Below are positions 591 to 59,772 of a DNA stretch of 64,000 nt, piece after piece. The stretch lies in IMG/VR virus record IMGVR_UViG_3300030333_008334, positions 48,741 to 112,740 of that record; one strand, written 5' to 3'. The first letter of the stretch is position 1. Every line of letters begins with the position of its first letter. The notes under the pieces are model-generated. The model was not told the origin of the DNA. It did not search any database and saw only the letters and a list, made by a program, of their open reading frames with translations. The stretch is from a virus. Made by a program: the position numbers and the translations under genes.

Positions 591-1051
591 TTCTGAACCT
601 CTACTGCCGCGTAGAAGACGCCTAAAGACAATAAAACGCCAGAGATTATCCCTAAAGAAACCCATAAAGCAGTATAATCATTTGAGTTTTCTGAAGCTAT
701 TTCTTGCAAGCGTTCAATTTCCTGGCTCTTAAGCATTAATATAGAATCAGTGCTTTCTTTTAAAGAATCATATTTTGCCTGTAATGTCGACAACTCTAAG
801 CTATGTTCTGCGTTAAGCTTCTTGGTTTCATAATCTAGTTTAAGCTGACTTTCCATTAAGGAATATTTTTTGTCTGTATTAATTTTTGCTGCGGCGACTG
901 GATCAAGCAAAATACCAGCATACGGTGCTTTTTGATTAATTGAAAGCGCTGTAATTTTTCCTTCCAAAGCGTCGGCTTCTTGTGCCTTTGCTTTAACCGG
1001 AGCGATTATAATACTAAGACTTATTAAAAGGCTCAATATGCATTTGAACAT
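587..1051 (-). CDS. Membrane protein: signal peptide + coiled coil + C-terminal TM helix (possible spanin-like lysis protein)
   Basis: Start MFKCIL at 1051 after GGAG; hydrophobic N-terminus ending AKA; heptad-rich middle; LWVSLGIISGVLLSLGVFYAAV at the C-terminus. Confidence 0.5.
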   Translation of the reverse strand: MFKCILSLLISLSIIIAPVKAKAQEADALEGKITALSINQKAPYAGILLDPVAAAKINTDKKYSLMESQLKLDYETKKLNAEHSLELSTLQAKYDSLKESTDSILMLKSQEIERLQEIASENSNDYTALWVSLGIISGVLLSLGVFYAAVEVQK

Positions 1052-1052
1052 T

Positions 1053-1430
1053 TTAGACTCCAAATAGTTTTTTCATTTCTTCTGCTATGGCATCCGGATT
1101 TTCATTGTGGTTTTTAACCAAATTTTCAATCTCTCTGCGTTTCTTTTTTGAAAGTTCGCTTACTTTAATGTTATGTTCTTTTTCAAGATTTTTTAAAGTT
1201 TCTTGGTAGATCATTACTATTTCTTCTCTTTTTGCTAACTCTTTTTCATGCGCTAGCTTTACTGTTTCTAATTCTTTTCTGTAACTTTCTTTTGCTATAT
1301 CAAGTACTTTCAAAGCATTCGCATTTGATTTTCGAAACACTAGCCATAGGACAATAGTATAAACCAACACTGCTGGTATATACCAATAGTGCTTTATCCA
1401 AGTCCAAATTTTTTTGATATTAAAAATCAT
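1053..1430 (-). CDS. N-terminal TM + coiled-coil protein (i-spanin-like)
   Basis: WYIPAVLVYTIVLWLVF followed by an E/K-rich coiled coil; adjacent to a holin-like gene. Confidence 0.45.
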   Translation of the reverse strand: MIFNIKKIWTWIKHYWYIPAVLVYTIVLWLVFRKSNANALKVLDIAKESYRKELETVKLAHEKELAKREEIVMIYQETLKNLEKEHNIKVSELSKKKRREIENLVKNHNENPDAIAEEMKKLFGV

Positions 1431-49962: not shown

Positions 49963-50213
49963 TTATATTCTCTTTCCTTGAGCGCTTGCTTTTCTTCTCT
50001 TACTTCTTGCTTAAATTCTTCTATCTTGCTTTTGACAACACTTCCTACTTTTTGAGTAGAGCTATCTTTCTTCTCGGTCATTAAAAAAGAAGGGACTCTA
50101 AAAAGAGCCCCCTCAGTATCACATTTCTTACAATCTTCTAAGCGATCAGAAATAGAATGAAAAGTCTCAAATTCATCATTGCAACTATTGCAGCGATAAA
50201 TATACCTAGGCAT
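49959..50213 (-). CDS. FmdB-family zinc-ribbon protein
   Basis: MPRYIYRCNSCNDEFE...CKKC. Confidence 0.8.
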   Translation of the reverse strand: MPRYIYRCNSCNDEFETFHSISDRLEDCKKCDTEGALFRVPSFLMTEKKDSSTQKVGSVVKSKIEEFKQEVREEKQALKEREYK

Positions 50214-50391: not shown

Positions 50392-50694
50392 TTATTTCTC
50401 CTTAAAAAATACTTCTGAATTTATGTTTTTATCATCTATAAAAAGATCATAGACCGGCTTTCCCAATCTTAGTTCGTGACATTTTACACCCCACTCACTA
50501 AATTGTTTTTCAGTAACTTCTCTCCAGTCAATACCAGAGCCAGTGCCACGAGCGGTCCAATAAATAATTGTATCTCCATTATCGTACAATTCATTAATTT
50601 TGTTAATATTTTTTTGTATTGGTTTTGCTAGTGAATAATCTCTGCTAGGCGGAGATATACAAATTGTCTCATCTATGTCTACATATATAATCAT
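50392..50694 (-). CDS. Minimal capless HAD-superfamily phosphatase
   Basis: DIDET (motif I), TARG (II), KP (III), IDDK (IV). Confidence 0.82.
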   Translation of the reverse strand: MIIYVDIDETICISPPSRDYSLAKPIQKNINKINELYDNGDTIIYWTARGTGSGIDWREVTEKQFSEWGVKCHELRLGKPVYDLFIDDKNINSEVFFKEK

Positions 50695-50697
50695 TTT

Positions 50698-50883
50698 TTA
50701 ATCCTCCAGCTTTGTAAGTTTTTTTCCTTGAGCGTCGGTTACCCAAGCAGTTAAATCAGTTAATTGCAGATCTCTAGATATCTTTTGAGCTTCTTCCATG
50801 GTCATCAACGGAGATATAGTATAAACCTTGCCGTCGCGCGTCAATACTTTTACCATATATCCTTTTTTATCGATAGACATCAT
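50698..50883 (-). CDS. Hypothetical protein
   Basis: 61 aa ORF filling the gap in the operon. Confidence 0.5.
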   Translation of the reverse strand: MMSIDKKGYMVKVLTRDGKVYTISPLMTMEEAQKISRDLQLTDLTAWVTDAQGKKLTKLED

Positions 50884-51715
50884 ATAACCAACGGCCGCAC
50901 CCGGGACTGTTCAACTGTTTCGTCGGATCATTTAAATATAGTATTTCAATATTATTTTCTCGTAAATGCTTGTCAAGCTGATATTCTACATTATCACCCC
51001 AATCTTTTTGATATTGTTTATATTTTTCTATAGGGGGATAGGCTTTTTCTTTTTCGTAAAGTGAGCAATAAACATCCATTGAAGATGGAGCGCCCATAGA
51101 AAAACCATCAAATAGAAAATTATCCATAAAACGATTGCCCTCGGGGCATTTCCAGCCACCAAAAACAAATATCTTATTTTCCAAGTCTCCCACTAAAGCT
51201 GCAGTCTTTTCTATATCTATAAACGTTTTGAAAGTTGAGTCAAATCGACTGCGTATTACCAAATCATATTCTATATTATTTTCTTTTTCATATTCACGCA
51301 TCAAATTATTACATGCATGCATTTTATACAATTGTCTTTTCTTTAGCCATTCCCACTTTGTTATTTTTTCTATTTCGTTATTGTCTTCGTTGATATCTTC
51401 ACTTTCTATCACAAGTTTTTTCAGCTGTTCGCCATAAACTTTATTTATCTTCTTTTCTAGTTTGTCTATCTCTACATTGTATATTTTGCCATATGTGCCA
51501 AGCATTTTTCGCCAGCCTACATGGCCAGGAAGATAATCAATTACAATTTCGTCTCTTGGTGGTATATGAGGCTTTAAATTTCTTTTTTGAGATACTGCAT
51601 CAGAAGTATGGATGAATATATCTACCTGATTATTTTTTATAAAAGCTTGCTTGTGATTTTCATAAACATCCCAAAAGCGACCTACATGACCTGAATAACA
51701 TAACGCTACTTTCAA
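50867..51715 (-). CDS. Putative glycosyltransferase-like protein
   Basis: KVALCYSG..R, DIFIHT, YDLVIRSRFD pattern of a Rossmann-like sugar-handling family; glycosylation-cluster context. Confidence 0.5.
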   Translation of the reverse strand: MKVALCYSGHVGRFWDVYENHKQAFIKNNQVDIFIHTSDAVSQKRNLKPHIPPRDEIVIDYLPGHVGWRKMLGTYGKIYNVEIDKLEKKINKVYGEQLKKLVIESEDINEDNNEIEKITKWEWLKKRQLYKMHACNNLMREYEKENNIEYDLVIRSRFDSTFKTFIDIEKTAALVGDLENKIFVFGGWKCPEGNRFMDNFLFDGFSMGAPSSMDVYCSLYEKEKAYPPIEKYKQYQKDWGDNVEYQLDKHLRENNIEILYLNDPTKQLNSPGCGRWLYDVYR

Positions 51716-52401
51716 TTTTTTTTCCTATTTGCCAAATATAATTTTTCAGCTACTTCAAATTGCCAGTCATAATCAATATCAAAACATTCGCGCTCAGGCA
51801 TCGAGAATAGCTCAATATCGCCATCTTTGCGAAAGTCACCCATCCATATGCCTTTGCCAATTAAATCCATTCTACCGGCATATAAGCAGTGTGCTGCCTC
51901 ATATGTAACATCAACCACTTTTGTATTCATTACAGCACCTTTGAGAGTTGTCAAACTCTGGCCCTTATCATTCCAAAAGTAGTTTTTCTTTTCCATAACT
52001 CCAAACATTCCAACAGAATCTGAATTCAAATATGCCTCGATAAAGCCATCGATTGTTTCAGGCTGCAAAAAAGGAGCGCATGCATTGATTAAAACACAAT
52101 ATTTATAAGGTAATTTATCCCACCAATCGTACATTTCAGTCATTGGAGTTCCTTCTGAATTAGCAGACGCTTCTGATCGATCAAATATATTCAAGCCGTG
52201 TTTTAGTGCAATATCTTTTAGCTCTGTTTCATATGCAGATAAAAAGAAGTTTTCTTGCTTAAGAACTTTACATTCTTTAATCTTTGCCATGGCAATATCT
52301 GTTAATGTAGTTCCGGCAAATGGCTTTGTCATCTTCCGCGGAACTCTTTGAGATCCCATCCTTGCTTGAATTATAAAACATACGTCATTAATATCTTTCA
52401 T
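51712..52401 (-). CDS. neuA: Acylneuraminate (CMP-nonulosonic acid) cytidylyltransferase
   Basis: IIQARMGSQRVPRKM.KPFAG, CAPF, DIDY motifs; same cluster as neuB. Confidence 0.88.
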   Translation of the reverse strand: MKDINDVCFIIQARMGSQRVPRKMTKPFAGTTLTDIAMAKIKECKVLKQENFFLSAYETELKDIALKHGLNIFDRSEASANSEGTPMTEMYDWWDKLPYKYCVLINACAPFLQPETIDGFIEAYLNSDSVGMFGVMEKKNYFWNDKGQSLTTLKGAVMNTKVVDVTYEAAHCLYAGRMDLIGKGIWMGDFRKDGDIELFSMPERECFDIDYDWQFEVAEKLYLANRKKN

Positions 52402-52410
52402 TATTTTCCT

Positions 52411-52899
52411 TTATTGTGTCTTGTTTTCCCATAAATATTTAAAATGCTTTAGGAAAATTGAACTAAATTGTCTACTTCTTATTAACATATAACTTTCGTC
52501 ATGACGGTTTATGGAAGCGTTAAAAAAATTACAAGTCCCTGTTAAAGCTTTCTCTTTATCAATTATAATCATCTTATGATGTAAGAGTTCGCCATTGTAC
52601 ATTTTAATTTTATTTTTATCTATCCCATTGGCTATTAAATATTTTGGTATGTTTGTTTCTCTTTTTTGGTCTACATCTTTTATTTTATCTTCAAATGATC
52701 TCTTATCTAAGATAATTTTAACATCTACGCCACGGTGAGCGGCTCTTAAAAGAGCATTTGCAATCGGAATCCAAGTAAACCAAAATACCATAATATGTAT
52801 TTTTTTTTCAGCTTTATCTATTTCCTGAATTACGAAATGCTCAATGTCTTGCTCAGGCCCAAGTAAAAGATCTTCTATATTAACTAAGAAATTCTTCAA
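52411..52899 (-). CDS. Single-domain phospholipase D family (HKD) protein
   Basis: HHKMIIID...TGTCNF; IDKAEKKIHI; AAHRGVDVKIILD. Confidence 0.88.
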   Translation of the reverse strand: MKNFLVNIEDLLLGPEQDIEHFVIQEIDKAEKKIHIMVFWFTWIPIANALLRAAHRGVDVKIILDKRSFEDKIKDVDQKRETNIPKYLIANGIDKNKIKMYNGELLHHKMIIIDKEKALTGTCNFFNASINRHDESYMLIRSRQFSSIFLKHFKYLWENKTQ

Positions 52900-53272
52900 T
52901 TAAATTAACGTCTCCCAAATCTTTTTCTTTGTTCGAACTTCTTTTTCTTTCTAAAAGCAAATTCAAATTAACATATTTATAGTCACCATTTTTTAAATGA
53001 TTTTCTCTATTATCTAATATAAGATCATCTGTAAGATTGTCATCTATAAAAAACCAATTTTCACCAACTATCTCGATATTTTTACTTATTTTGCATGACT
53101 TATGTGACAAAGATAAATCTTTTCTTACAGATTTTCTAACAATAATGTCAACATCATTATTTTCTCTTATTTCGTGTAAAGCTAAAATAGCCGAGCCAAC
53201 AATACAGACGTCATTTTTATCTATTTGATACTGGTTCAAAATCGTTTCCAATTCTTTTAAATATTTAACCAT
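52880..53272 (-). CDS. Small Pol-beta-superfamily nucleotidyltransferase
   Basis: IVGSAIL...NDVDII motif and C-terminal KDLGD. Confidence 0.7.
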   Translation of the reverse strand: MVKYLKELETILNQYQIDKNDVCIVGSAILALHEIRENNDVDIIVRKSVRKDLSLSHKSCKISKNIEIVGENWFFIDDNLTDDLILDNRENHLKNGDYKYVNLNLLLERKRSSNKEKDLGDVNLIEEFLS

Positions 53273-54236
53273 TTATAAACTCGCCGTGTGAAACAAGAGT
53301 CTTCTTGATATGATCTGTATGTTCATAGTTGTCTCCGGCATGAATAATAATATCGTAAAAATAATCTTCAATTTGAGATCTATATCTGTTCCTTATCTCG
53401 CTCTTTAGTGCTTCTATATCTTTAGATATAAATTTACCTTTTGCCTTTGTTTTTTCTCTATATTCAGTAGAAAATAAATCTAAATATAAAATACGAATAT
53501 TGCGACAGCCTACCATGTGCGATAATTTTTTATTTATTTTCCACTGCTCTATATCATCAACCTGGTATACATCATTGACAAAATTTATATAACGATTATG
53601 GTCTTGAAATTGACAGGTAAAAGCTTCTAGTATATCATAATTTTTTTCTATATCTTTTTCAATTTTATCATACAAATCTTGTGCTGGTCCCCACAACATC
53701 ACAACATAATGTAAGTTTGTTTTTAGAAATATTTCTTTTCTCTTTTGCTCTATTAGATTCAGCTCACTAGGTAAGAATCCGTTTTTTTCAAACCATTCTT
53801 TTCCATAGTGAAAATATGTTTTTTCAACAGGCTTCTTACACTCTAAATGCTGCTTCCAATCTTCCACTACCTCATATGGAATCTTCTCTATATCGAAAAA
53901 TAGACTGCAAGCAGCTCGGTGAGAAGAATTAATTAAATGCCTTTCAGGGTTCACCACTAAGGGATAACTCTTATCATACCCGCGTGTTCGAAAGCTTTTA
54001 AGTAAATCGATAAAACTAGCATCATAAGTAATGTTATCTCTATGTAAAGTATCACCAGTTCTCTGTTTCTGCATTTTGAGATAAAGGTCTTTGCAATCTT
54101 CAAAAGATTTCGGCATTTTATTGAGATTATGATATGTTTCTAAAAACATATATCGTACAACCAAATCTAAACGACTAAATTTATTTTCATACTTTTGAGA
54201 TAAAAGTAAATCTCTTTGAGATATAAGTTTAGTCAT
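53265..54236 (-). CDS. ParB/sulfiredoxin-like N-terminal domain protein with a C-terminal IIHAGDN domain
   Basis: LLKSFRTRGYD..YPLVV...LINSSHRAAC resembles the ParB-N GxHR motif; terminal IHAGD recalls the NDP-kinase phospho-His motif. Confidence 0.5.
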   Translation of the reverse strand: MTKLISQRDLLLSQKYENKFSRLDLVVRYMFLETYHNLNKMPKSFEDCKDLYLKMQKQRTGDTLHRDNITYDASFIDLLKSFRTRGYDKSYPLVVNPERHLINSSHRAACSLFFDIEKIPYEVVEDWKQHLECKKPVEKTYFHYGKEWFEKNGFLPSELNLIEQKRKEIFLKTNLHYVVMLWGPAQDLYDKIEKDIEKNYDILEAFTCQFQDHNRYINFVNDVYQVDDIEQWKINKKLSHMVGCRNIRILYLDLFSTEYREKTKAKGKFISKDIEALKSEIRNRYRSQIEDYFYDIIIHAGDNYEHTDHIKKTLVSHGEFING

Positions 54237-54237
54237 T

Positions 54238-55278
54238 TTATTTTTCCAACGGAAAAGCTTGACGAGAGATATCTGTCGTCATATTGAAAGGATGGCCTTC
54301 TCCTAAATTTTGAAATTTAATCTTTTTATGTGCTTGCAAGTCGTTTAAAATATAATCCCAAAAAGCTACATATTGACGTCGAAACATATTATAATCCAGC
54401 GATTTCTGGCTATATCTCTTGTCTTTCTGAAAAGCATGATTATGCAAATCTCCTCTTTTTGTACTCTTGGACATACCGTCAAAGCCTATAAAATGTATTT
54501 CTCTTGGTTGTAGGTCGACAGCCAAAGCAATCAAACGCGGAGCAGATCCAATCTTTCCTCTATATCTAGTATGCAAAAACATTGCTCTAGTTGGATATCT
54601 TTCTGTTAAAATTTTAAAATCTTCTTTCTTTTCTTGCAAAATATTATTGTGTTGGTCGTCGATACAAACTAAAGTATCGTTATTATCTAAATATTTGAAT
54701 ATTTCATCATCTTTATTTTTTTTACGAAAATCAATCTCGCCGGCAAAAGTTGATAATGTAACATTATGTTCTTTAAGTTTCTTATTTAAATAAAAATGAT
54801 TACAAGAAAAGACATGATCATATTCTTTCGGATCCCAATCATATTCGCTAGCAGTTGGGCCGGCAGCGACGATCAACAATTTTGTTCCTCTTACTTCTTT
54901 TAGTTTTTCCTTATTTGAATAAAACATCTCATTGTTACAGACAATATTATTATCAAAATAATTAAAAAAATGTCTTTTAACAAATCCTATATCTAATCCA
55001 TTTCCAATAATCCACTTTTCCCTAGGTGTTAGAAAATATGCGCTCTTTGAATCATATGATTCTCTAGTAGCATCAGTAGAAAAAACATTCTTAGTATCTA
55101 AATCAAGCCACAATGATTCATATTCTTCTTTTTCTGAATATAGATTAACAAACTTTCTTATGGCGTCTTCTATGGCCGCAGGTGGAATGCTGCAATGTTT
55201 AATCAGTGCTTGCCTTAGACTATTTATGTTATTTATCTTATAACAGTTATTCCAAACAACATTATCTAGATTTTGCAT
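54238..55278 (-). CDS. CstII (GT42)/Maf-like putative sialyltransferase
   Basis: IVAAGPT.SEYD......VFSCNHFY and EIHFIGFD match the CstII-type pattern IAGNGPS.KEID......VFRCNQFY / EIYLSGID. Confidence 0.68.
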   Translation of the reverse strand: MQNLDNVVWNNCYKINNINSLRQALIKHCSIPPAAIEDAIRKFVNLYSEKEEYESLWLDLDTKNVFSTDATRESYDSKSAYFLTPREKWIIGNGLDIGFVKRHFFNYFDNNIVCNNEMFYSNKEKLKEVRGTKLLIVAAGPTASEYDWDPKEYDHVFSCNHFYLNKKLKEHNVTLSTFAGEIDFRKKNKDDEIFKYLDNNDTLVCIDDQHNNILQEKKEDFKILTERYPTRAMFLHTRYRGKIGSAPRLIALAVDLQPREIHFIGFDGMSKSTKRGDLHNHAFQKDKRYSQKSLDYNMFRRQYVAFWDYILNDLQAHKKIKFQNLGEGHPFNMTTDISRQAFPLEK

Positions 55279-56164
55279 TTTGCCTCATCCCTTGTGAAAC
55301 ATTGTGATCGCTTGTTTCTGCTAAATTTTCATATTCAACCTCTGGCAATAAATTTTGAATATAATGCCAAAATACAAACGTTTGCTGATCAAACCGATAT
55401 TTATCAAAATAAGGCGGCGGTGCTTTTTTCGGCTCAAATGCATGCGCCTTCATATTAGCATCTTTAAAACCATCAAAACCTACGTAGCCAATTTTGTTAG
55501 CTCCGAGTAGCGATGCAATTGCAATTACTCTTGGAATATATCCCAGGCGTGAAAAATATCTTGTCAAAAACAAGAATACATTTGCACCTCTGCTTTTAAA
55601 ATCATTCAGAGGATCAATTGACCTGTGATCTGAATGTTCAAATCCTATTAGAGGATTATATTTTTCTACACATTCGACTAATTTTGGATCGTGCAAATTT
55701 ACCTGATGTCCTAAGAGCATTAAATCAGGTCTAATATCCTTAAATCTAGGAGTCTTGTAGAAATAATTACATGTGAAAACATAATCATATTCACATATTT
55801 TTTCCAAATCAAATTCTTTTGAGGAAGGACCTCCGCCTACTACTAACACACTAGAATTATTAAACTTTTGAAAACTCGGGTTTCCAGTAATAATAATTTC
55901 TGGAGATAGAATCAAGTTTTCATAATCATCATACTTGTGTCGAGGGCCAAAATAACGATTGAAAAACTCTATTGCATAAGAATCTAGCCAAGTTTTTGCG
56001 TCAGTATTAAAATTAAACCAGCCGCCTGGATATGCTTCGTTTCTGTTGTTGTACCCAAATATCTGATCGCTTTCAGTGTCTAGCCATTCATTATTATTTT
56101 CTGTTGCAACAAAACGTTTATTCCATTTATCTTGTAGCGTAAGTGATAATTCTTGATCCGCCAT
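55262..56164 (-). CDS. CstII (GT42)/Maf-like putative sialyltransferase
   Basis: VVGGGPSSKEFD......VFTCNYFY and KIGYVGFD; paralog of 54238-55278. Confidence 0.7.
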   Translation of the reverse strand: MADQELSLTLQDKWNKRFVATENNNEWLDTESDQIFGYNNRNEAYPGGWFNFNTDAKTWLDSYAIEFFNRYFGPRHKYDDYENLILSPEIIITGNPSFQKFNNSSVLVVGGGPSSKEFDLEKICEYDYVFTCNYFYKTPRFKDIRPDLMLLGHQVNLHDPKLVECVEKYNPLIGFEHSDHRSIDPLNDFKSRGANVFLFLTRYFSRLGYIPRVIAIASLLGANKIGYVGFDGFKDANMKAHAFEPKKAPPPYFDKYRFDQQTFVFWHYIQNLLPEVEYENLAETSDHNVSQGMRQNAKSR

Positions 56165-56879
56165 ATATCCTCTTGCTCTTAAATTTAGTAAATCCTTTAG
56201 TTGCTAAGTATTGCTCTAGAAGTTGTATATTACAAGACCAATAGGTAGTAAAATCACCATCAACTTCGTCACCTGGATAATATATCATAATCGGCTCAGA
56301 AGAACCGTCCTGCCTTGCCGGCAATGGCCACTGTCGACGCCATGCGTGATACTCAGCATTAATTGTCTCTACAACCACCGTTTCTTTAGCCACAGAGATA
56401 ACTTTGTCTAAAATAGCTAGTGGGTTAGGGAGATGATAGAAAACGCCTAAAAACAGTGCTATATCATGCTCTCCGACAGTTTCTGGAGATAGTTGGTCCA
56501 AAGGCACAACACTATCCTCAACTTTAGATTCTAAAATCTCTCTAGCTAAAAGAAAACCTTTTTGTTGGCTCCAAATCTCTCCTTGACTTTTTTCGTCTAA
56601 TTCTTGAGATCCCCAACGATACGGGTCAACAGCCAAAACACTTGTTGCGCCAGATTTCTCTGCGAAGAATGAAAAACAGCCATCGCATGCACCAATATCA
56701 ATTACGCTCTTTCCTTCAAAAAGATCAGGCGTCATTTCCCACTCTCTTAAATCCACAGCGGTGTCTTTTTTACCTGGAGTGATCTGTCCATTTCCCAAAT
56801 CAATTTGCTGGCGCCATTTGATTTCTGCAACCCTAGGGTCATGATTTGGATCTGTATACTTAAAATTAAATCCTGACAT
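56127..56879 (-). CDS. Class I SAM-dependent methyltransferase (CmoB/DUF1698-like)
   Basis: VIDIGACDG, VLAVD, DIALFLGVFYHL motifs. Confidence 0.85.
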   Translation of the reverse strand: MSGFNFKYTDPNHDPRVAEIKWRQQIDLGNGQITPGKKDTAVDLREWEMTPDLFEGKSVIDIGACDGCFSFFAEKSGATSVLAVDPYRWGSQELDEKSQGEIWSQQKGFLLAREILESKVEDSVVPLDQLSPETVGEHDIALFLGVFYHLPNPLAILDKVISVAKETVVVETINAEYHAWRRQWPLPARQDGSSEPIMIYYPGDEVDGDFTTYWSCNIQLLEQYLATKGFTKFKSKRIYGGSRIITYATR

Positions 56880-56880
56880 T

Positions 56881-57708
56881 TTAATTACCTCTTAGTTTCT
56901 TACGTATTGGCTTTTCGCCTTCAGTTACTTTCTTTACGCCGTCGCCAAAAGCCATTTCTAGCTCTCGCACGCCTTTTACCAGTTTAATTAAGCCCTGCGG
57001 CTCAACTGAGGACATGTGATCAGAACCCCACATTGTACGGTCTAGAGTAATGTGCCTTTCTAGAATTGTCGCACCAAGATAAACTGATGCAACTGTAGTA
57101 CCTAATCTAAATTCATGACCACTATATCCAACTTCACAATTGTAACGGTCTTTTAGCATTTGTATACAGCTAAGATTTAACTCGTCGAGTGGTGCTGGAT
57201 ATGTAGAATTGCAATGCAACAAAGCAAAATCAGTACCTTTTAGAATCTCGACAGCTGCATCAATCTCATCTAAAGTGCTCATACCGGTAGATATAATGAT
57301 TCTCTTGCCGGTATCAACAGCTGCTTGTAAAAGCTCATGGTTTGTCAGCATTGCTGATGGCATCTTTATGTACGGTACACCATATGAAACTAAAAAGTCT
57401 AGACTATCTAGATCCCAAGGAGAAGCAGTCCATTGAATTTTCTTTTCCTTACAATAAGCATCAATTTGATCATATTCATGTCGACCAAATTCTACTTTAT
57501 ATTTGTATTCCAAATATGTCATAGGGCCCCATGGGGTATCCCTCATAACTGACTTTTGATGTTCTGGAACACAAACATCCGGGTTTCTCTTTTGAAACTT
57601 GACTGAATCACAACCTGCTACAGCTGCAATATCAATAAGTCTTTTGGCTATTTCTAAACTTCCGTTATGGTTAATACCAATCTCTGCTATAATGTGTGTC
57701 TTCTTCAT
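56881..57708 (-). CDS. neuB: N-acetylneuraminate (nonulosonic acid) synthase family, without C-terminal SAF domain
   Basis: IIAEIGINHNG, VKFQKR, STGMST, HCNSTYP, GYSGHE, ERHITLDR, GSDH. Confidence 0.95.
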   Translation of the reverse strand: MKKTHIIAEIGINHNGSLEIAKRLIDIAAVAGCDSVKFQKRNPDVCVPEHQKSVMRDTPWGPMTYLEYKYKVEFGRHEYDQIDAYCKEKKIQWTASPWDLDSLDFLVSYGVPYIKMPSAMLTNHELLQAAVDTGKRIIISTGMSTLDEIDAAVEILKGTDFALLHCNSTYPAPLDELNLSCIQMLKDRYNCEVGYSGHEFRLGTTVASVYLGATILERHITLDRTMWGSDHMSSVEPQGLIKLVKGVRELEMAFGDGVKKVTEGEKPIRKKLRGN

Positions 57709-59768
57709 TTTTTCTCCAACAATTTTCTTGGCACATCTTCATGAACGTGTGAGCCTTTTGTGCATATATGTACATTAACATTCTTGCTTTTTAGCCAATT
57801 TGAAAAATCTCTACTTAATTCTATATTCTTTTCAATTTCATTTGGTCTCATAGGATCTGACTTTCTGATTAGATCAGGCTTATCTTTATCTCCATCGTAG
57901 AAACGAATCGATTCTGTCTGGCCGATCTTTTCATGATCCCAACCAATTGCATATAAATCTGATACTCCCAAATGCTCAGCTAAAAACAATGCTACTTCAT
58001 AAATTATTCCAGGCCCCCAAGGACGCTCAACGCTCTTATCTAGTGTATAGTTATCAAATTCTTTAGTGTTTGCCAAAGCTTTGCTAAAATCTTGATTTGA
58101 ATTTACTATAGGCATGAATATATCATACTCTTGTGCGTTTGTCCAGACATTTCTTGAAATAATTTCTTCCGGCTCGCCAGCTGTTGTTAAAACAATCGGA
58201 TTATTATTAGTGTATTCATATAGCTTAAAATTATTACAGTTAAACAAATGAAAATCTACTATTTCTGGAACGTAATCATAGCCTTGCTTAATAGCAATTA
58301 CTAACTTATCCTTCAGCTTTTCTTTTAAAAATTCAGGTGTATATTCTTTAAGCGAAGGTCCACATGTAACAAGATAACATTCTTGCCCTTTAAAAGAATC
58401 TTTCAATAAGTCTAACTTTTCTCTTGTTGTCTTTACATTACTGATTCTTCTTTTTAAGAAAGAAACCTTTGGATTATTTTTCTCGACGCGAATGTCGGCC
58501 ATTTGCTTTTCTGAATCTTTGTCAATCTTGTATTCGCTTTTAACAATATCAACAAACTTTCTACCAATAGTTTGTAAATCCATATTTAAACTATTGACAT
58601 GCTCATAACCAATAGCGCCTTTTTCTTTCAACGAATCGTGCTTCCACATTTCATAAGCTCTTCTTAATTCTTTTCTAGCACTTAATATGTGAGGTTCAAA
58701 CCAGTTCATATCACAATGATATTCTGGCCTTGCAAGATATGGACTCCAGTGGCCGTCGACAAAAAACGCTGCGTTTTGATGAGTAAAATCCATATATCCA
58801 GTTGCTCTAGGTACTAAAACAGGAGTTTTATGCAAAAGTGATTCAGCAATAGTCAAGCCAAAACCTTCGCCGCGTGTTAATAAGGCAAAAATATCTGATT
58901 TCTCATAAAGCCAAGAAATTTGTTCAAACGGTAAAGCATCTGCTAATAATAGAATATTTGCTTTTGAAGGTTGTCCGTCATGCATATAGACAGAAGATTT
59001 TAAATCTTTAATCTCTGACGCTATCATATCTCTCTGTTTTTCTAGAGGTACTTGCTTAAGGTAATCCTCCATTAAATTTAGATAAGTTTTTATGACTAAT
59101 ATAGCATCGTCTTGGCCAGAGAACTCCATTGAAAAAGATTGAACTAGTTTGTCGAATCCTTTACGGTTATTCCACTGAGACATTGAAAACACAACAAATT
59201 TGTCTTTCAGCACTTTTCCTAAATGAGGCATCTCAACAGGATTTACGATACTGTCATCCATCACATGAGGTAATAAATGACATGGGCGATCGCCTATCCT
59301 TGGAGAAAACACTTCTTGATTCCAACTACAAGGAACTATAAGCGCATCAGTCTTTAATTGATCGTATGTAGAAACCCATGGTTGAGGGATATCATCAGCT
59401 TCCCAAACCGTTAGATTAATATTTCGATTAGCGTTTGTGATTAATTTTAAACCTGCGCGCCACAGAGGATCCAAACTACGTCGATGGATCAAATAAATCA
59501 TTGGCGCCGGCATATGCCACACAACTAGATAATCTTTTTTACAATACTGATCGACTTCTTCTTCTGAATCAAACTCATATTTTGATATGAGAGCTTCTTC
59601 TTCTGCTGTCAATCGATTATTAGAGTTTTCTACTGGGACTGTATGTACTTTGAAATCAAATTCACCAGGATTATCTTTCAAATAAGTGTCAATAGATTTC
59701 AGGTACCCTCTAGCTGCGACAGCATACCCACTGCAGTCTCTAAACTGACTTACATATACTATATTCAT
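57705..59768 (-). CDS. Bifunctional GT4 glycosyltransferase + C-terminal CstII/Maf-like domain
   Basis: SGYAVAAR, RKGFDKL, RGEGFGLTIAES (GT4); CYLVTCGPSLKEY...DLYAIGWD (GT42/Maf-like). Confidence 0.82.
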   Translation of the reverse strand: MNIVYVSQFRDCSGYAVAARGYLKSIDTYLKDNPGEFDFKVHTVPVENSNNRLTAEEEALISKYEFDSEEEVDQYCKKDYLVVWHMPAPMIYLIHRRSLDPLWRAGLKLITNANRNINLTVWEADDIPQPWVSTYDQLKTDALIVPCSWNQEVFSPRIGDRPCHLLPHVMDDSIVNPVEMPHLGKVLKDKFVVFSMSQWNNRKGFDKLVQSFSMEFSGQDDAILVIKTYLNLMEDYLKQVPLEKQRDMIASEIKDLKSSVYMHDGQPSKANILLLADALPFEQISWLYEKSDIFALLTRGEGFGLTIAESLLHKTPVLVPRATGYMDFTHQNAAFFVDGHWSPYLARPEYHCDMNWFEPHILSARKELRRAYEMWKHDSLKEKGAIGYEHVNSLNMDLQTIGRKFVDIVKSEYKIDKDSEKQMADIRVEKNNPKVSFLKRRISNVKTTREKLDLLKDSFKGQECYLVTCGPSLKEYTPEFLKEKLKDKLVIAIKQGYDYVPEIVDFHLFNCNNFKLYEYTNNNPIVLTTAGEPEEIISRNVWTNAQEYDIFMPIVNSNQDFSKALANTKEFDNYTLDKSVERPWGPGIIYEVALFLAEHLGVSDLYAIGWDHEKIGQTESIRFYDGDKDKPDLIRKSDPMRPNEIEKNIELSRDFSNWLKSKNVNVHICTKGSHVHEDVPRKLLEKK

Positions 59769-59772
59769 TTTT

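What the first reader, a model, noticed from the sequence alone, without database searches (positions are those of the whole stretch)
50392..57708. Pathway logic points to a KDN-type 9-phosphate route rather than Neu5Ac/Pse/Leg
Seen: NeuB is only 275 aa and ends at ...PIRKKLRGN with no SAF/antifreeze domain; a 100 aa capless HAD phosphatase lies in the cluster; no NeuC epimerase or Pse/Leg dehydratase, aminotransferase or acetyltransferase is present in the window. Established: the Bacteroides KDN pathway uses a KDN-9-P synthase (mannose-6-P + PEP), a HAD phosphatase and a CMP-KDN synthetase. Inference: the phage could make CMP-KDN or a similar sugar from central metabolites with only three enzymes, independent of host sialic acid pathways.
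Basis: inference. Interest (0 to 1): 0.72.

Follow-up and report, generated by a model that had tools for sequence, protein, structure and literature searches.

The report
Phage Kdn-type sugar pathway via phosphate
A marine phage carries a short sialic-acid-type synthase, a tiny phosphatase and an activating enzyme, and comparison with hundreds of relatives suggests they make an activated Kdn-like acidic sugar from ordinary sugar phosphates, a route not found in the phage papers searched.

Summary
The gene at 56881-57708(-) encodes a 275-aa protein that is a NeuB domain only, with no SAF domain. The gene at 50392-50694(-) encodes a 100-aa HAD phosphatase with all four catalytic motifs and no room for a cap. 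A CTP_transf_3 cytidylyltransferase lies at 51712-52401(-). The 112.7-kb contig (CheckV 62% complete) holds no NeuC, NanE, PseB/LegB or credible DegT gene.

- The synthase falls in a deep SAF-less clade (SH-aLRT 97).
- In 77 of 80 nearest cellular loci, that clade's synthase sits directly after a YrbI/KdsC-type sugar-acid-phosphate phosphatase. In 75 a CMP-synthetase is also present. Many are fused: CMP-synthetase+HAD in 61, all three in 13.
- One metagenomic protein fuses the phage-type capless HAD to a SAF-less NeuB.
- In other phages the HAD directly abuts the short NeuB.
- In relatives, aminotransferase genes always come with a second, SAF-bearing NeuB that this contig lacks.
- Many of those cellular loci are Streptomyces, whose cell-wall polymer contains Kdn.

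So a synthase → phosphatase → CMP-activation route is well supported. Kdn as the product is inferred, not shown. The phosphatase is not the Bacteroides type. I rate it a new variant of a known kind, of moderate interest. An earlier pass of this scan had already flagged this cluster as a nonulosonic-acid system.

The parts
56881..57708 (-). SAF-less NeuB-family synthase (275 aa). Proposed to condense PEP with a hexose-6-phosphate (Kdn-9-P-type synthase).
   Evidence: PF03102, 253.5 bits, no SAF. Catalytic and metal residues align to N. meningitidis NeuB E25, K53, Q55, K129, S132, S154, Y186, S213, H215, E234, H236 and D247; E134 is replaced by Met. Sits in the SAF-less clade, SH-aLRT 97. Best PDB match is the SAF-less 6ncs.
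50392..50694 (-). Capless (C0) HAD phosphatase, 100 aa. Proposed nonulosonate-9-phosphate phosphatase.
   Evidence: Motifs I-IV invariant in 78 homologues. PDB 9iqw E 1.5e-10; phrog_1238 3e-27. 42% identical to the N-terminal domain of the HAD-NeuB fusion P0128. Directly upstream of the short NeuB in L034-L040, L045 and L048, and 2-21 bp from a NeuB in 12 further loci.
51712..52401 (-). CMP-sugar synthetase (229 aa, CTP_transf_3)
   Evidence: PF02348 E 8.8e-14. Weak matches to PseF and KdsB, far below cut-offs. PDB NeuA/CMAS-type hits. Found with the short NeuB in 34 of 43 viral loci. 26% identical to the CMP-synthetase domain fused to NeuB in P0122.
56127..56879 (-). SAM-dependent methyltransferase (250 aa) directly after NeuB. 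Possible sugar O-methylation.
   Evidence: PF13489 E 1.7e-9. Shared only with the closest relative L043 (83% identical). A methyltransferase-NeuB fusion exists elsewhere (P0238).
54238..56164 (-). Two MptE-like/Maf-like proteins (346 and 300 aa). Candidate transferases for the CMP-sugar.
   Evidence: PF01973 matches below cut-off, E 2.5e-4 and 8.6e-3. Homologues lie next to the short NeuB in 35 viral loci. A NeuB-MptE fusion exists (P0198).
57705..62339 (-). Three GT4 glycosyltransferases (687, 443, 418 aa). The first carries a C-terminal MptE-like part.
   Evidence: PF00534, PF13692 and PF01973. Conserved with a PD-(D/E)XK nuclease upstream of the short NeuB in most relatives.
50698..54236 (-). 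Variable cassette between NeuB and HAD, excluding the CMP-synthetase gene at 51712-52401 listed separately: 61-aa ORF, 282-aa DUF7796-like, 162-aa PLD-like, 130-aa nucleotidyltransferase-like and 323-aa unknown. Roles unassigned.
   Evidence: Pfam and PHROGs. Atlas: the 282-aa protein groups with viral DUF7796 / 'capsular polysaccharide biosynthesis' clusters; the 323-aa protein has only hypothetical neighbours. The PLD/NT/323 trio is shared only with L017, L018 and L046.

Best explanation
The cluster encodes a three-step route to an activated nonulosonic acid that runs through a phosphorylated intermediate.
1. The SAF-less NeuB condenses phosphoenolpyruvate with a hexose-6-phosphate, most likely mannose-6-phosphate, to give a nonulosonate-9-phosphate (Kdn-9-P).
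2. The 100-aa capless HAD removes the 9-phosphate.
3. The CTP_transf_3 enzyme makes the CMP-sugar.
4. The Maf-like and GT4 transferases then attach it to an acceptor, possibly after methylation.

What is shown: the gene content, intact catalytic motifs, clade membership, and the recurrent operon or fusion coupling of this NeuB clade with phosphatases and cytidylyltransferases. What is inferred: the identity of the sugar phosphate, and so of the product; that this HAD is the pathway phosphatase in this phage; and the acceptor.

The phosphatase is a non-orthologous replacement of the YrbI/KdsC-type enzyme used by cellular organisms.
For: - **Clade.** The nearest 150 representatives (40-58% identical) are mostly 270-300 aa, that is SAF-less. 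An IQ-TREE LG+C20 tree gives a 40-row SAF-less clade (SH-aLRT 97) holding the window. All SAF-bearing phage paralogues fall in a separate clade (98) (FastTree on 188 rows agrees).
- **Fusions.** Nonomuraea P0123 is CMP-synthetase + YrbI-type HAD + NeuB. Mucilaginibacter P0132 is a HAD + NeuB, and its HAD matches BT1713 (PDB 3e81) at E 1.6e-33. P0122 is NeuB + CMP-synthetase. P0128 is a capless HAD (42% identical to the window's, E 9e-23) + NeuB.
- **Cellular loci.** 77 of 80 nearest loci, spread over more than ten phyla, have a YrbI-type HAD directly upstream of the NeuB, and 75 have a CMP-synthetase. The three without a HAD sit at contig ends. Only 3 loci have DegT or PseB. CMP-synthetase and HAD share one frame in 61 loci and all three genes in 13. 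No NeuB ORF extends more than 22 aa past the match.
- **Bacteroidia.** 21 of 401 sampled genomes carry this NeuB type with the HAD adjacent or fused.
- **Phages.** HAD-NeuB-Maf-CMPs lie back to back in L034-L040, L045 and L048 without DegT or a long NeuB. A second lineage (L187) has MptE-like, CTP_transf_3, a 272-aa NeuB and a 106-aa HAD contiguous. The HAD is found in 26 of 36 related records, including both that are at least 94% complete.
- **Pse/Leg module elsewhere.** DegT in relatives comes with a long SAF-bearing NeuB in 10 of 10 loci.
- **No precursor genes.** No NeuC, NanE, PseB or second NeuB in the contig. No NeuC or NanE in near-complete relatives.
- **Kdn link.** Streptomyces make up about half of the nearest cellular loci. 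Their walls carry a Kdn-containing teichulosonic acid (PMC11481543). In S. coelicolor the cluster SCO4873-4882 includes NeuA SCO4880 and NeuB SCO4881 (PMC3479208, PMC13011467).
- **Characterised enzymes.** The Kdn-9-P synthases of B. thetaiotaomicron and P. parvum use Man-6-P, and the P. parvum enzyme accepts nothing else tested (PMC6200933).
Against: - No biochemical data exist for any member of this phage clade.
- The characterised enzymes BT1714 and the P. parvum synthetase could not be placed in the tree, so membership of 'the' Kdn-9-P synthase group is untested.
- In the window the HAD lies 6.2 kb and nine genes away from NeuB.
- The HAD was not found in 10 of 36 related records, three of them 54-78% complete.
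- The HAD family also occurs in other sugar contexts. Cyanophage Bellamy gp212 sits in a heptose-like cluster with a kinase, a nucleotidyltransferase and two epimerases, and 26 of 80 HAD loci have no NeuB within 10 kb.
- The S. coelicolor cluster includes a putative ManNAc-6-P 2-epimerase (PMC3479208), which keeps a Neu5Ac-9-P reading alive.
- The Glu134 equivalent is Met in the window.
- The contig is only 62% complete.
Confidence: 0.6

Rival explanations
1. The short NeuB is an ordinary non-phosphorylated NulO synthase (Neu5Ac, Pse or Leg type). It uses a precursor supplied by the host or by genes on the missing part of the genome, and the HAD belongs to another process.
For: Its best NCBIfam models are NeuB_NnaB and PseI. 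Many relatives carry PseB-like and DegT genes within a few kb of the short NeuB. The HAD is 6 kb away here, was not found in 10 of 36 related records, and its family occurs in a heptose-like cluster in cyanophage Bellamy. The genome is 62% complete.
Against: Both NCBIfam scores fall far below the equivalog cut-offs. DegT always comes with a second, SAF-bearing NeuB (10 of 10 loci), and that NeuB type falls in a different clade. Loci with only the short NeuB have the HAD directly beside it and no DegT. 77 of 80 cellular relatives are coupled to a phosphatase and only 3 have DegT or PseB. HAD-NeuB fusions exist.
Confidence: 0.14
2. The same three-enzyme phosphorylated logic applies, but the substrate is ManNAc-6-phosphate and the product is CMP-Neu5Ac, an animal-like route.
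For: The gene logic is identical to the animal NANS/NANP/CMAS route (described in PMC8208679). The S. coelicolor teichulosonic-acid cluster contains a putative ManNAc-6-P 2-epimerase, SCO4873 (PMC3479208). B. thetaiotaomicron and human enzymes accept more than one 6-phosphate (PMC6200933, Table 2).
Against: No NanE, NeuC or GNE-type gene in the contig or in relatives up to 100% complete. From general knowledge, ManNAc-6-P is not a general central metabolite. The Streptomyces polymer contains Kdn, not Neu5Ac (PMC11481543).
Confidence: 0.12
3. The clade makes a different phosphorylated ulosonic acid: an epimer of Kdn, an 8-carbon Kdo-like acid from a pentose-5-phosphate, or a product from a modified hexose-6-phosphate. 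The neighbouring methyltransferase and unknown genes may then tailor it.
For: Nothing in the sequence fixes the sugar. The clade has its own conserved loop (T-P-W-G, P59 in 87% of SAF-less rows against 4% of SAF rows) and has lost Glu134. The cytidylyltransferase scores about equally poorly against PseF and KdsB models. The YrbI-type partner phosphatases match KdsC as well as they match BT1713.
Against: No NeuB-family enzyme is known to make Kdo-8-P. The P. parvum enzyme was inactive on Ara-5-P (PMC6200933). Kdn is the only deaminated NulO documented in organisms that carry this operon (PMC11481543).
Confidence: 0.12

Closest known systems
Bacteroides thetaiotaomicron Kdn pathway: BT1714 Kdn-9-P synthase, BT1713 Kdn-9-P phosphatase, BT1715 CMP-Kdn synthetase (Wang et al. 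2008, as cited in PMC6200933; UniProt Q8A711, Q8A712, Q8A710)
   Same: The same three enzyme classes sit in one cluster: a NeuB-family synthase, a C0-type HAD phosphatase and a CTP_transf_3 cytidylyltransferase. No NeuC, Pse or Leg precursor enzymes are present.
   Different: The phage phosphatase is a 100-aa capless HAD of the phrog_1238 / TIGR01689-like family, not a YrbI/KdsC-type enzyme like BT1713. Kinship of the phage synthase to BT1714 itself was not tested. The host here is a virus, and Maf-like transferases are attached.
Actinobacterial teichulosonic-acid (Kdn polymer) locus, S. coelicolor SCO4879-SCO4881 (PMC3479208, PMC13011467, PMC11481543)
   Same: Streptomyces NeuB homologues are 55-58% identical to the phage enzyme and SAF-less. 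They lie directly after a CMP-synthetase/HAD gene. The polymer's Kdn is often methylated, and the phage has a methyltransferase next to NeuB.
   Different: The cellular loci fuse the CMP-synthetase to a YrbI-type HAD, while the phage keeps separate, unrelated genes. The product there is a cell-wall polymer, while here the target is probably a protein or another acceptor.
Prymnesium parvum Kdn-9-P synthetase / CMP-Kdn synthetase (PMC6200933)
   Same: Synthase plus CMP-synthetase using Man-6-P. No homologue of the Bacteroides Kdn-9-P phosphatase was found there either, which shows the phosphatase step can be filled by different enzymes.
   Different: A eukaryotic alga. The sequence relation to the phage enzyme was not tested.
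Campylobacter/Helicobacter Pse and Leg flagellin glycosylation (PseB/C/H/G/I/F, Maf transferases)
   Same: A NeuB-family synthase, a CMP-synthetase and MptE-like (Maf) transferases lie in one island. Related phages do carry PseB/DegT with a SAF-bearing NeuB.
   Different: This contig has no dehydratase, aminotransferase, acetyltransferase or NeuC-type hydrolase. Its only synthase is SAF-less and scores below the PseI cut-off.

Membership tests
NeuB / nonulosonic acid synthase family (PF03102) | NeuB TIM-barrel domain above the Pfam gathering score | tested here: met
   253.5 bits against a cut-off of 22.1, covering profile positions 1-241
NeuB / nonulosonic acid synthase family (PF03102) | Metal ligands and PEP-binding or catalytic residues of N. 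meningitidis NeuB | tested here: met
   E9, K37, Q39, K115, S118, S140, Y170, S196, H198, E217, H219 and D230 align to E25, K53, Q55, K129, S132, S154, Y186, S213, H215, E234, H236 and D247. E134 is Met120.
Canonical bacterial Neu5Ac synthase (TIGR03569) / PseI (TIGR03586) | Score above the NCBIfam equivalog cut-off, and a C-terminal SAF domain carrying the Arg314 equivalent | tested here: not met
   261.4 against 399.65 and 192.9 against 340.25. The match ends at model position 274 of 329 and there is no PF08666 (SAF) hit.
Kdn-9-P pathway (BT1713-1715 type) | Synthase genetically coupled to a sugar-acid-phosphate phosphatase | tested here: met
   Same cluster in the window. Adjacent in 9 + 12 viral loci and in L187. 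Fusion P0128. 77 of 80 cellular relatives.
Kdn-9-P pathway (BT1713-1715 type) | Phosphatase of the YrbI/KdsC (BT1713) HAD subfamily | tested here: not met
   The window HAD has no YrbI/KdsC-type hit in the PDB search. Its matches are 9iqw, TIGR01689/BT0820-like families and phrog_1238.
Kdn-9-P pathway (BT1713-1715 type) | CMP-sugar synthetase in the cluster | tested here: met
   PF02348 at 51712-52401
Kdn-9-P pathway (BT1713-1715 type) | Synthase groups with characterised Kdn-9-P synthases (BT1714, P. parvum) in a phylogeny | not tested
   The reference sequences could not be obtained through the tools.
Kdn-9-P pathway (BT1713-1715 type) | Man-6-P + PEP gives Kdn-9-P | not testable with these tools
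   Needs an enzyme assay
Pse/Leg biosynthesis | UDP/GDP-GlcNAc 4,6-dehydratase (PF02719), DegT aminotransferase and a NeuC/PseG-type hydrolase | tested here: not met
   None in the 112.7-kb contig. The contig is 62% complete.
HAD superfamily phosphatase, capless (C0) | Motifs I-IV (DxDxT, S/T, K, DD) and no cap insert | tested here: met
   D6, D8, T10, T47, K79, D83 and D88 are conserved at 97% or more in 78 distinct homologues. Total length is 100 aa.

The most novel reading that the evidence does not exclude
The whole SAF-less NeuB clade, with thousands of sequences in bacteria, archaea and abundant marine phages, consists of phosphate-dependent (Kdn-9-P-type) synthases. Marine T4-like phages have rebuilt the pathway with an unrelated mini-HAD and use it, through Maf-like transferases, to decorate their own virions with Kdn made from the host's mannose-6-phosphate pool.
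Probability: 0.4. Interest if true: 0.72.

Novelty: new variant of a known kind. Interest (0 to 1): 0.55.

Why it matters
**A function for an unassigned clade.** SAF-less NeuB proteins have so far been noted only as 'environmental' NeuBs of unknown role (PMC8208679). This reading gives them a testable function.

**A viral pathway from central metabolites.** It would mean that a widespread group of marine phages makes an activated sialic-acid-family sugar from PEP, a hexose-6-phosphate and CTP, without needing a host sialic acid pathway. The group is large: homologues at 77-80% identity fill the top 120 hits in marine metagenomes.

**A swapped enzyme.** It is also an example of non-orthologous displacement of the pathway phosphatase.

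**Wider effects.** If the sugar ends up on virions, it bears on phage surface chemistry, on host recognition, and on how 'sialic acid synthase' genes in viromes are annotated.

Tried and rejected
Gene contexts were rebuilt instead from the search for related loci and the genome search.
- **Anchoring on BT1714 failed.** Wang et al. 2008 and Hao et al. 2006 are not held. A text search for 'BT1714' gave only PMC6200933. That paper and its supplements give neither the sequence nor the length. A sample of 401 Bacteroidia genomes carries no names, and the one adjacent HAD I checked scored only 108 bits against BT1713, so it is not B. thetaiotaomicron.
- **A 40-sequence alignment** was too diverse for the genome scan. 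An 8-sequence alignment worked.
- **A search for PDB entry 9iqw** in papers found nothing relevant.
- **Clade-specific basic residues** that might bind phosphate: at 85% conservation only P59 (in the TPWG loop) and Y79 stand out. This is not decisive.
- **The sub-threshold DegT match** in the contig (17 bits, three stops) is treated as chance.
- **The second sugar cluster of the complete relative G023** (radical SAM, short DegT-like, two epimerases) has no tblastn match in this contig.
- **Promoter and terminator scans** were near chance level and show no strong terminator between NeuB and HAD.
- **Atlas and PHROGs searches** did not assign the 282-aa and 323-aa proteins.

Full report
**Where the window lies.** The window is bases 48741-112740 of a 112,740-bp linear IMG/VR viral contig that CheckV rates 62% complete. 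All long ORFs are on the minus strand. The part outside the window encodes T4-like portal, major capsid and prohead protease proteins, plus a family-A DNA polymerase, RecA, gp32, RNR and Thy1. This is a large tailed phage from aquatic metagenomes.

**Observation.**
- The ORF at 56881-57708(-) gives a 275-aa protein ending ...PIRKKLRGN.
  - Pfam finds only the NeuB domain (253.5 bits) and no SAF.
  - NCBIfam aligns it to positions 2-274 of the 329-position NeuB_NnaB model, below both equivalog cut-offs.
- The ORF at 50392-50694(-) gives a 100-aa protein with HAD motifs I-IV.
  - These motifs are invariant or nearly so in 78 distinct homologues: D6, D8, T10, T47, K79, D83, D88.
  - Its best matches are PDB 9iqw 'capsule biosynthesis protein' (E 1.5e-10) and phrog_1238 (3e-27), with weak hits to the EcbF-BcbF and BT0820 HAD families.
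- A CTP_transf_3 cytidylyltransferase lies at 51712-52401(-).
- The cluster runs from 62339 to 50392 on the minus strand. In that order it holds:
  - three GT4 glycosyltransferases, the first with an MptE-like tail;
  - NeuB;
  - a methyltransferase;
  - two MptE-like/Maf-like proteins;
  - a 323-aa unknown;
  - a nucleotidyltransferase-like protein;
  - a PLD-like protein;
  - the cytidylyltransferase;
  - a DUF7796-like protein;
  - a 61-aa ORF;
  - the HAD.
- A PD-(D/E)XK nuclease bounds the cluster upstream.
- Six-frame family searches of the whole contig find no Epimerase_2, Polysacc_synt_2 or NanE and only one NeuB. The single DegT match is sub-threshold and interrupted by stops.

**What the synthase is.** Residues that bind metal and PEP in N. 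meningitidis NeuB are conserved; the Glu134 equivalent is Met.
- The best solved relative is 6ncs, itself a SAF-less 290-aa protein.
- In the 50%-identity representative library, the nearest 150 clusters (40-58% identical) are mostly 270-300 aa.
- A FastTree of 188 sequences groups the SAF-less sequences together. An IQ-TREE LG+C20 tree of 69 gives that clade SH-aLRT 97.
- The window sits in a phage subclade (99). That subclade is nested in a 19-row group (97) with NeuBs of a Bacteriovoracaceae, a Methanoregula and an Omnitrophica genome.
- SAF-less NeuBs have been noted before as 'environmental' enzymes without an assigned role (PMC8208679).

**Fusions.** Several close representatives are fusion proteins.
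- P0123, from Nonomuraea maritima, is cytidylyltransferase + YrbI/KdsC-type HAD + SAF-less NeuB.
- P0132, from several Mucilaginibacter species, is YrbI-type HAD + NeuB. Its HAD matches the Bacteroides Kdn-9-P phosphatase BT1713 (PDB 3e81) at E 1.6e-33.
- P0122 is NeuB + cytidylyltransferase.
- P0198 is NeuB + MptE-like.
- P0128, a single metagenomic contig, joins a NeuB 55% identical to the window's to an N-terminal domain 42% identical to the window's capless HAD (E 9e-23).

**Cellular gene context.** A scan of one genome per prokaryotic species returned the 80 best loci, 53-60% identical. They come from Streptomyces and other Actinomycetota, Chloroflexota, Chlorobiota, Planctomycetota, Acidobacteriota, Myxococcota, Bdellovibrionota, Bacteroidota, Pseudomonadota and archaea.
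- In 77 loci a YrbI-type HAD lies directly upstream of the NeuB, and 75 have a cytidylyltransferase.
- The three loci without a HAD are cut by contig ends.
- Only three loci have DegT-like or PseB-like genes.
- The cytidylyltransferase and HAD share one open frame in 61 loci, and all three genes in 13.
- No NeuB frame runs more than 22 aa past the match, so none has a SAF domain.
- In a sample of 401 Bacteroidia genomes, 21 have this NeuB type with the HAD adjacent or fused. The others carry 32-38%-identical NeuBs of 340-360 aa.

This three-gene set contains the same three enzyme types as the characterised Bacteroides Kdn pathway: Q8A712 phosphatase, Q8A711 synthase, Q8A710 CMP-Kdn synthetase (PMC6200933).

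**Link to Kdn.**
- Streptomycete walls carry teichulosonic acid, a polymer of galactose and Kdn that is often methylated (PMC11481543).
- The S. coelicolor cluster for this polymer is SCO4873-SCO4882 (PMC13011467, citing Ostash 2014).
- That cluster contains the operon SCO4879-4881, with NeuA (SCO4880) and NeuB (SCO4881) (PMC3479208).
- About half of the 80 nearest cellular loci are Streptomyces.
- The step from 'this operon' to 'Kdn' is my inference. The same cluster also holds a putative ManNAc-6-P 2-epimerase (PMC3479208), which is a caveat.

**Phage relatives.** Forty-three viral contigs carry a short NeuB 54-88% identical to the window's. Gene-order comparison shows three things.
- The short NeuB, a Maf-like gene, the cytidylyltransferase and the GT4 pair recur.
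- In nine loci the order is HAD, short NeuB, Maf-like, cytidylyltransferase, with no DegT and no second NeuB. These loci include the 100%- and 94%-complete genomes G023 and G036.
- In ten other loci a PseB-like dehydratase and a DegT aminotransferase are present. Every one of these also has a second NeuB of 323-341 aa that spans the full model including the SAF part and falls in a different clade.

The Pse/Leg-type module therefore pairs with the long paralogue, not with the short one. The window has only the short one.

Further points on the phage HAD:
- It occurs in 26 of 36 searchable related records.
- In 80 loci centred on HAD homologues, 54 have a NeuB within 10 kb, and in 12 the gap is 2-21 bp.
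- One of these, L187, belongs to a second lineage. It has an MptE-like gene, CTP_transf_3, a 272-aa NeuB and a 106-aa HAD back to back.
- The closest relative (NeuB 88%, HAD 89% identical) has a different cassette between the two genes. This suggests a variable island flanked by NeuB and HAD, which would explain the 6.2-kb separation in the window.
- Near-complete relatives have no NeuC or NanE. They do have a separate sugar cluster about 80 kb away that has no match in this contig.

**Evidence that cuts the other way.**
- The HAD family is not specific to this pathway.
  - In cyanophage Bellamy the homologue (gp212, labelled 'phosphoheptose isomerase') lies among a kinase, a nucleotidyltransferase and two epimerases.
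  - Twenty-six HAD loci show no NeuB nearby.
- Ten related records, three of them 54-78% complete, show no HAD.
- The cytidylyltransferase is too divergent to type.
- From my own knowledge, human NANS uses 6-phosphates yet keeps the AFP/SAF domain. The clade-level coupling to phosphatases carries the argument.
- The characterised enzyme BT1714 could not be placed in the tree.

**Mechanism proposed.**
1. PEP and a hexose-6-phosphate, most likely Man-6-P, are condensed by the short NeuB into a nonulosonate-9-phosphate.
2. The capless HAD removes the phosphate.
3. The cytidylyltransferase makes the CMP-sugar.
4. The Maf-like and GT4 enzymes transfer it, with methylation possible.

Steps 1-3 as a phosphorylated route rest on comparative genomics, and I put them at about 0.75. 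Kdn as the specific sugar I put at about 0.5.

The acceptor is unknown.

**Novelty.** The Kdn-9-P route is known in Bacteroides and in a haptophyte (PMC6200933). Full-text searches found no description of it in phages. Here the phosphatase is a different HAD family from BT1713. I class it as a new variant of a known kind. An earlier pass of this scan had already flagged the cluster as a nonulosonic-acid system. This report adds the evidence for the phosphorylated route.

Noticed in passing
L043 (IMGVR_UViG_3300025066_002466), L017/L018/L046, and L006-L030 generally: Related phages carry two or even three NeuB paralogues in one island: a short SAF-less one plus a 323-361-aa SAF-bearing one, and in some loci fused forms of 489-613 aa. 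The DNA between the short NeuB and the HAD looks like a swappable cassette.
   Followed up: partly
L049 = G023:C1:55000-70000: A complete relative has a second sugar cluster about 80 kb from the NeuB island. It holds a radical SAM protein, a truncated 200-aa DegT-like protein, an ADI-like protein and two NAD-dependent epimerase/dehydratases. There is no tblastn match in this contig.
   Followed up: partly
L131 (Synechococcus phage Bellamy, NC_047838.1, gp212) and phrog_1238: The 'phosphoheptose isomerase' label on this ~100-aa protein family looks mis-transferred. The family has HAD phosphatase motifs and in Bellamy it sits in a heptose-like sugar cluster.
   Followed up: partly
G000:C1:10568-11260 (outside the window; L001): A 230-aa short-chain dehydrogenase (adh_short_C2, E 1e-27) lies between the gp32-like and RecA-like genes, away from the sugar cluster. 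Its role is unknown.
   Followed up: no
window 50089-50114 (-): A strong terminator-like hairpin (11 pairs followed by a T-run) lies about 280 bp downstream of the HAD gene, inside the predicted 90-aa ORF. It may mark the end of the glyco operon, or it may mean that ORF's start is miscalled.
   Followed up: no
L026 / G016:C1:66682-66942: In one relative the HAD homologue lies inside a 409-aa open frame, which may be a fusion with another domain.
   Followed up: no
L187:10290-14624: In a second phage lineage the NeuB-HAD module is followed by a DegT aminotransferase, a C-methyltransferase, an epimerase and a GDP-mannose 4,6-dehydratase. This looks like a GDP-mannose-derived amino or branched sugar pathway next to the Kdn-type module.
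   Followed up: partly
window 990-1247: A sub-threshold DegT-like six-frame match (17.4 bits) interrupted by three stop codons. It is probably chance, though it could be a gene remnant.
   Followed up: no
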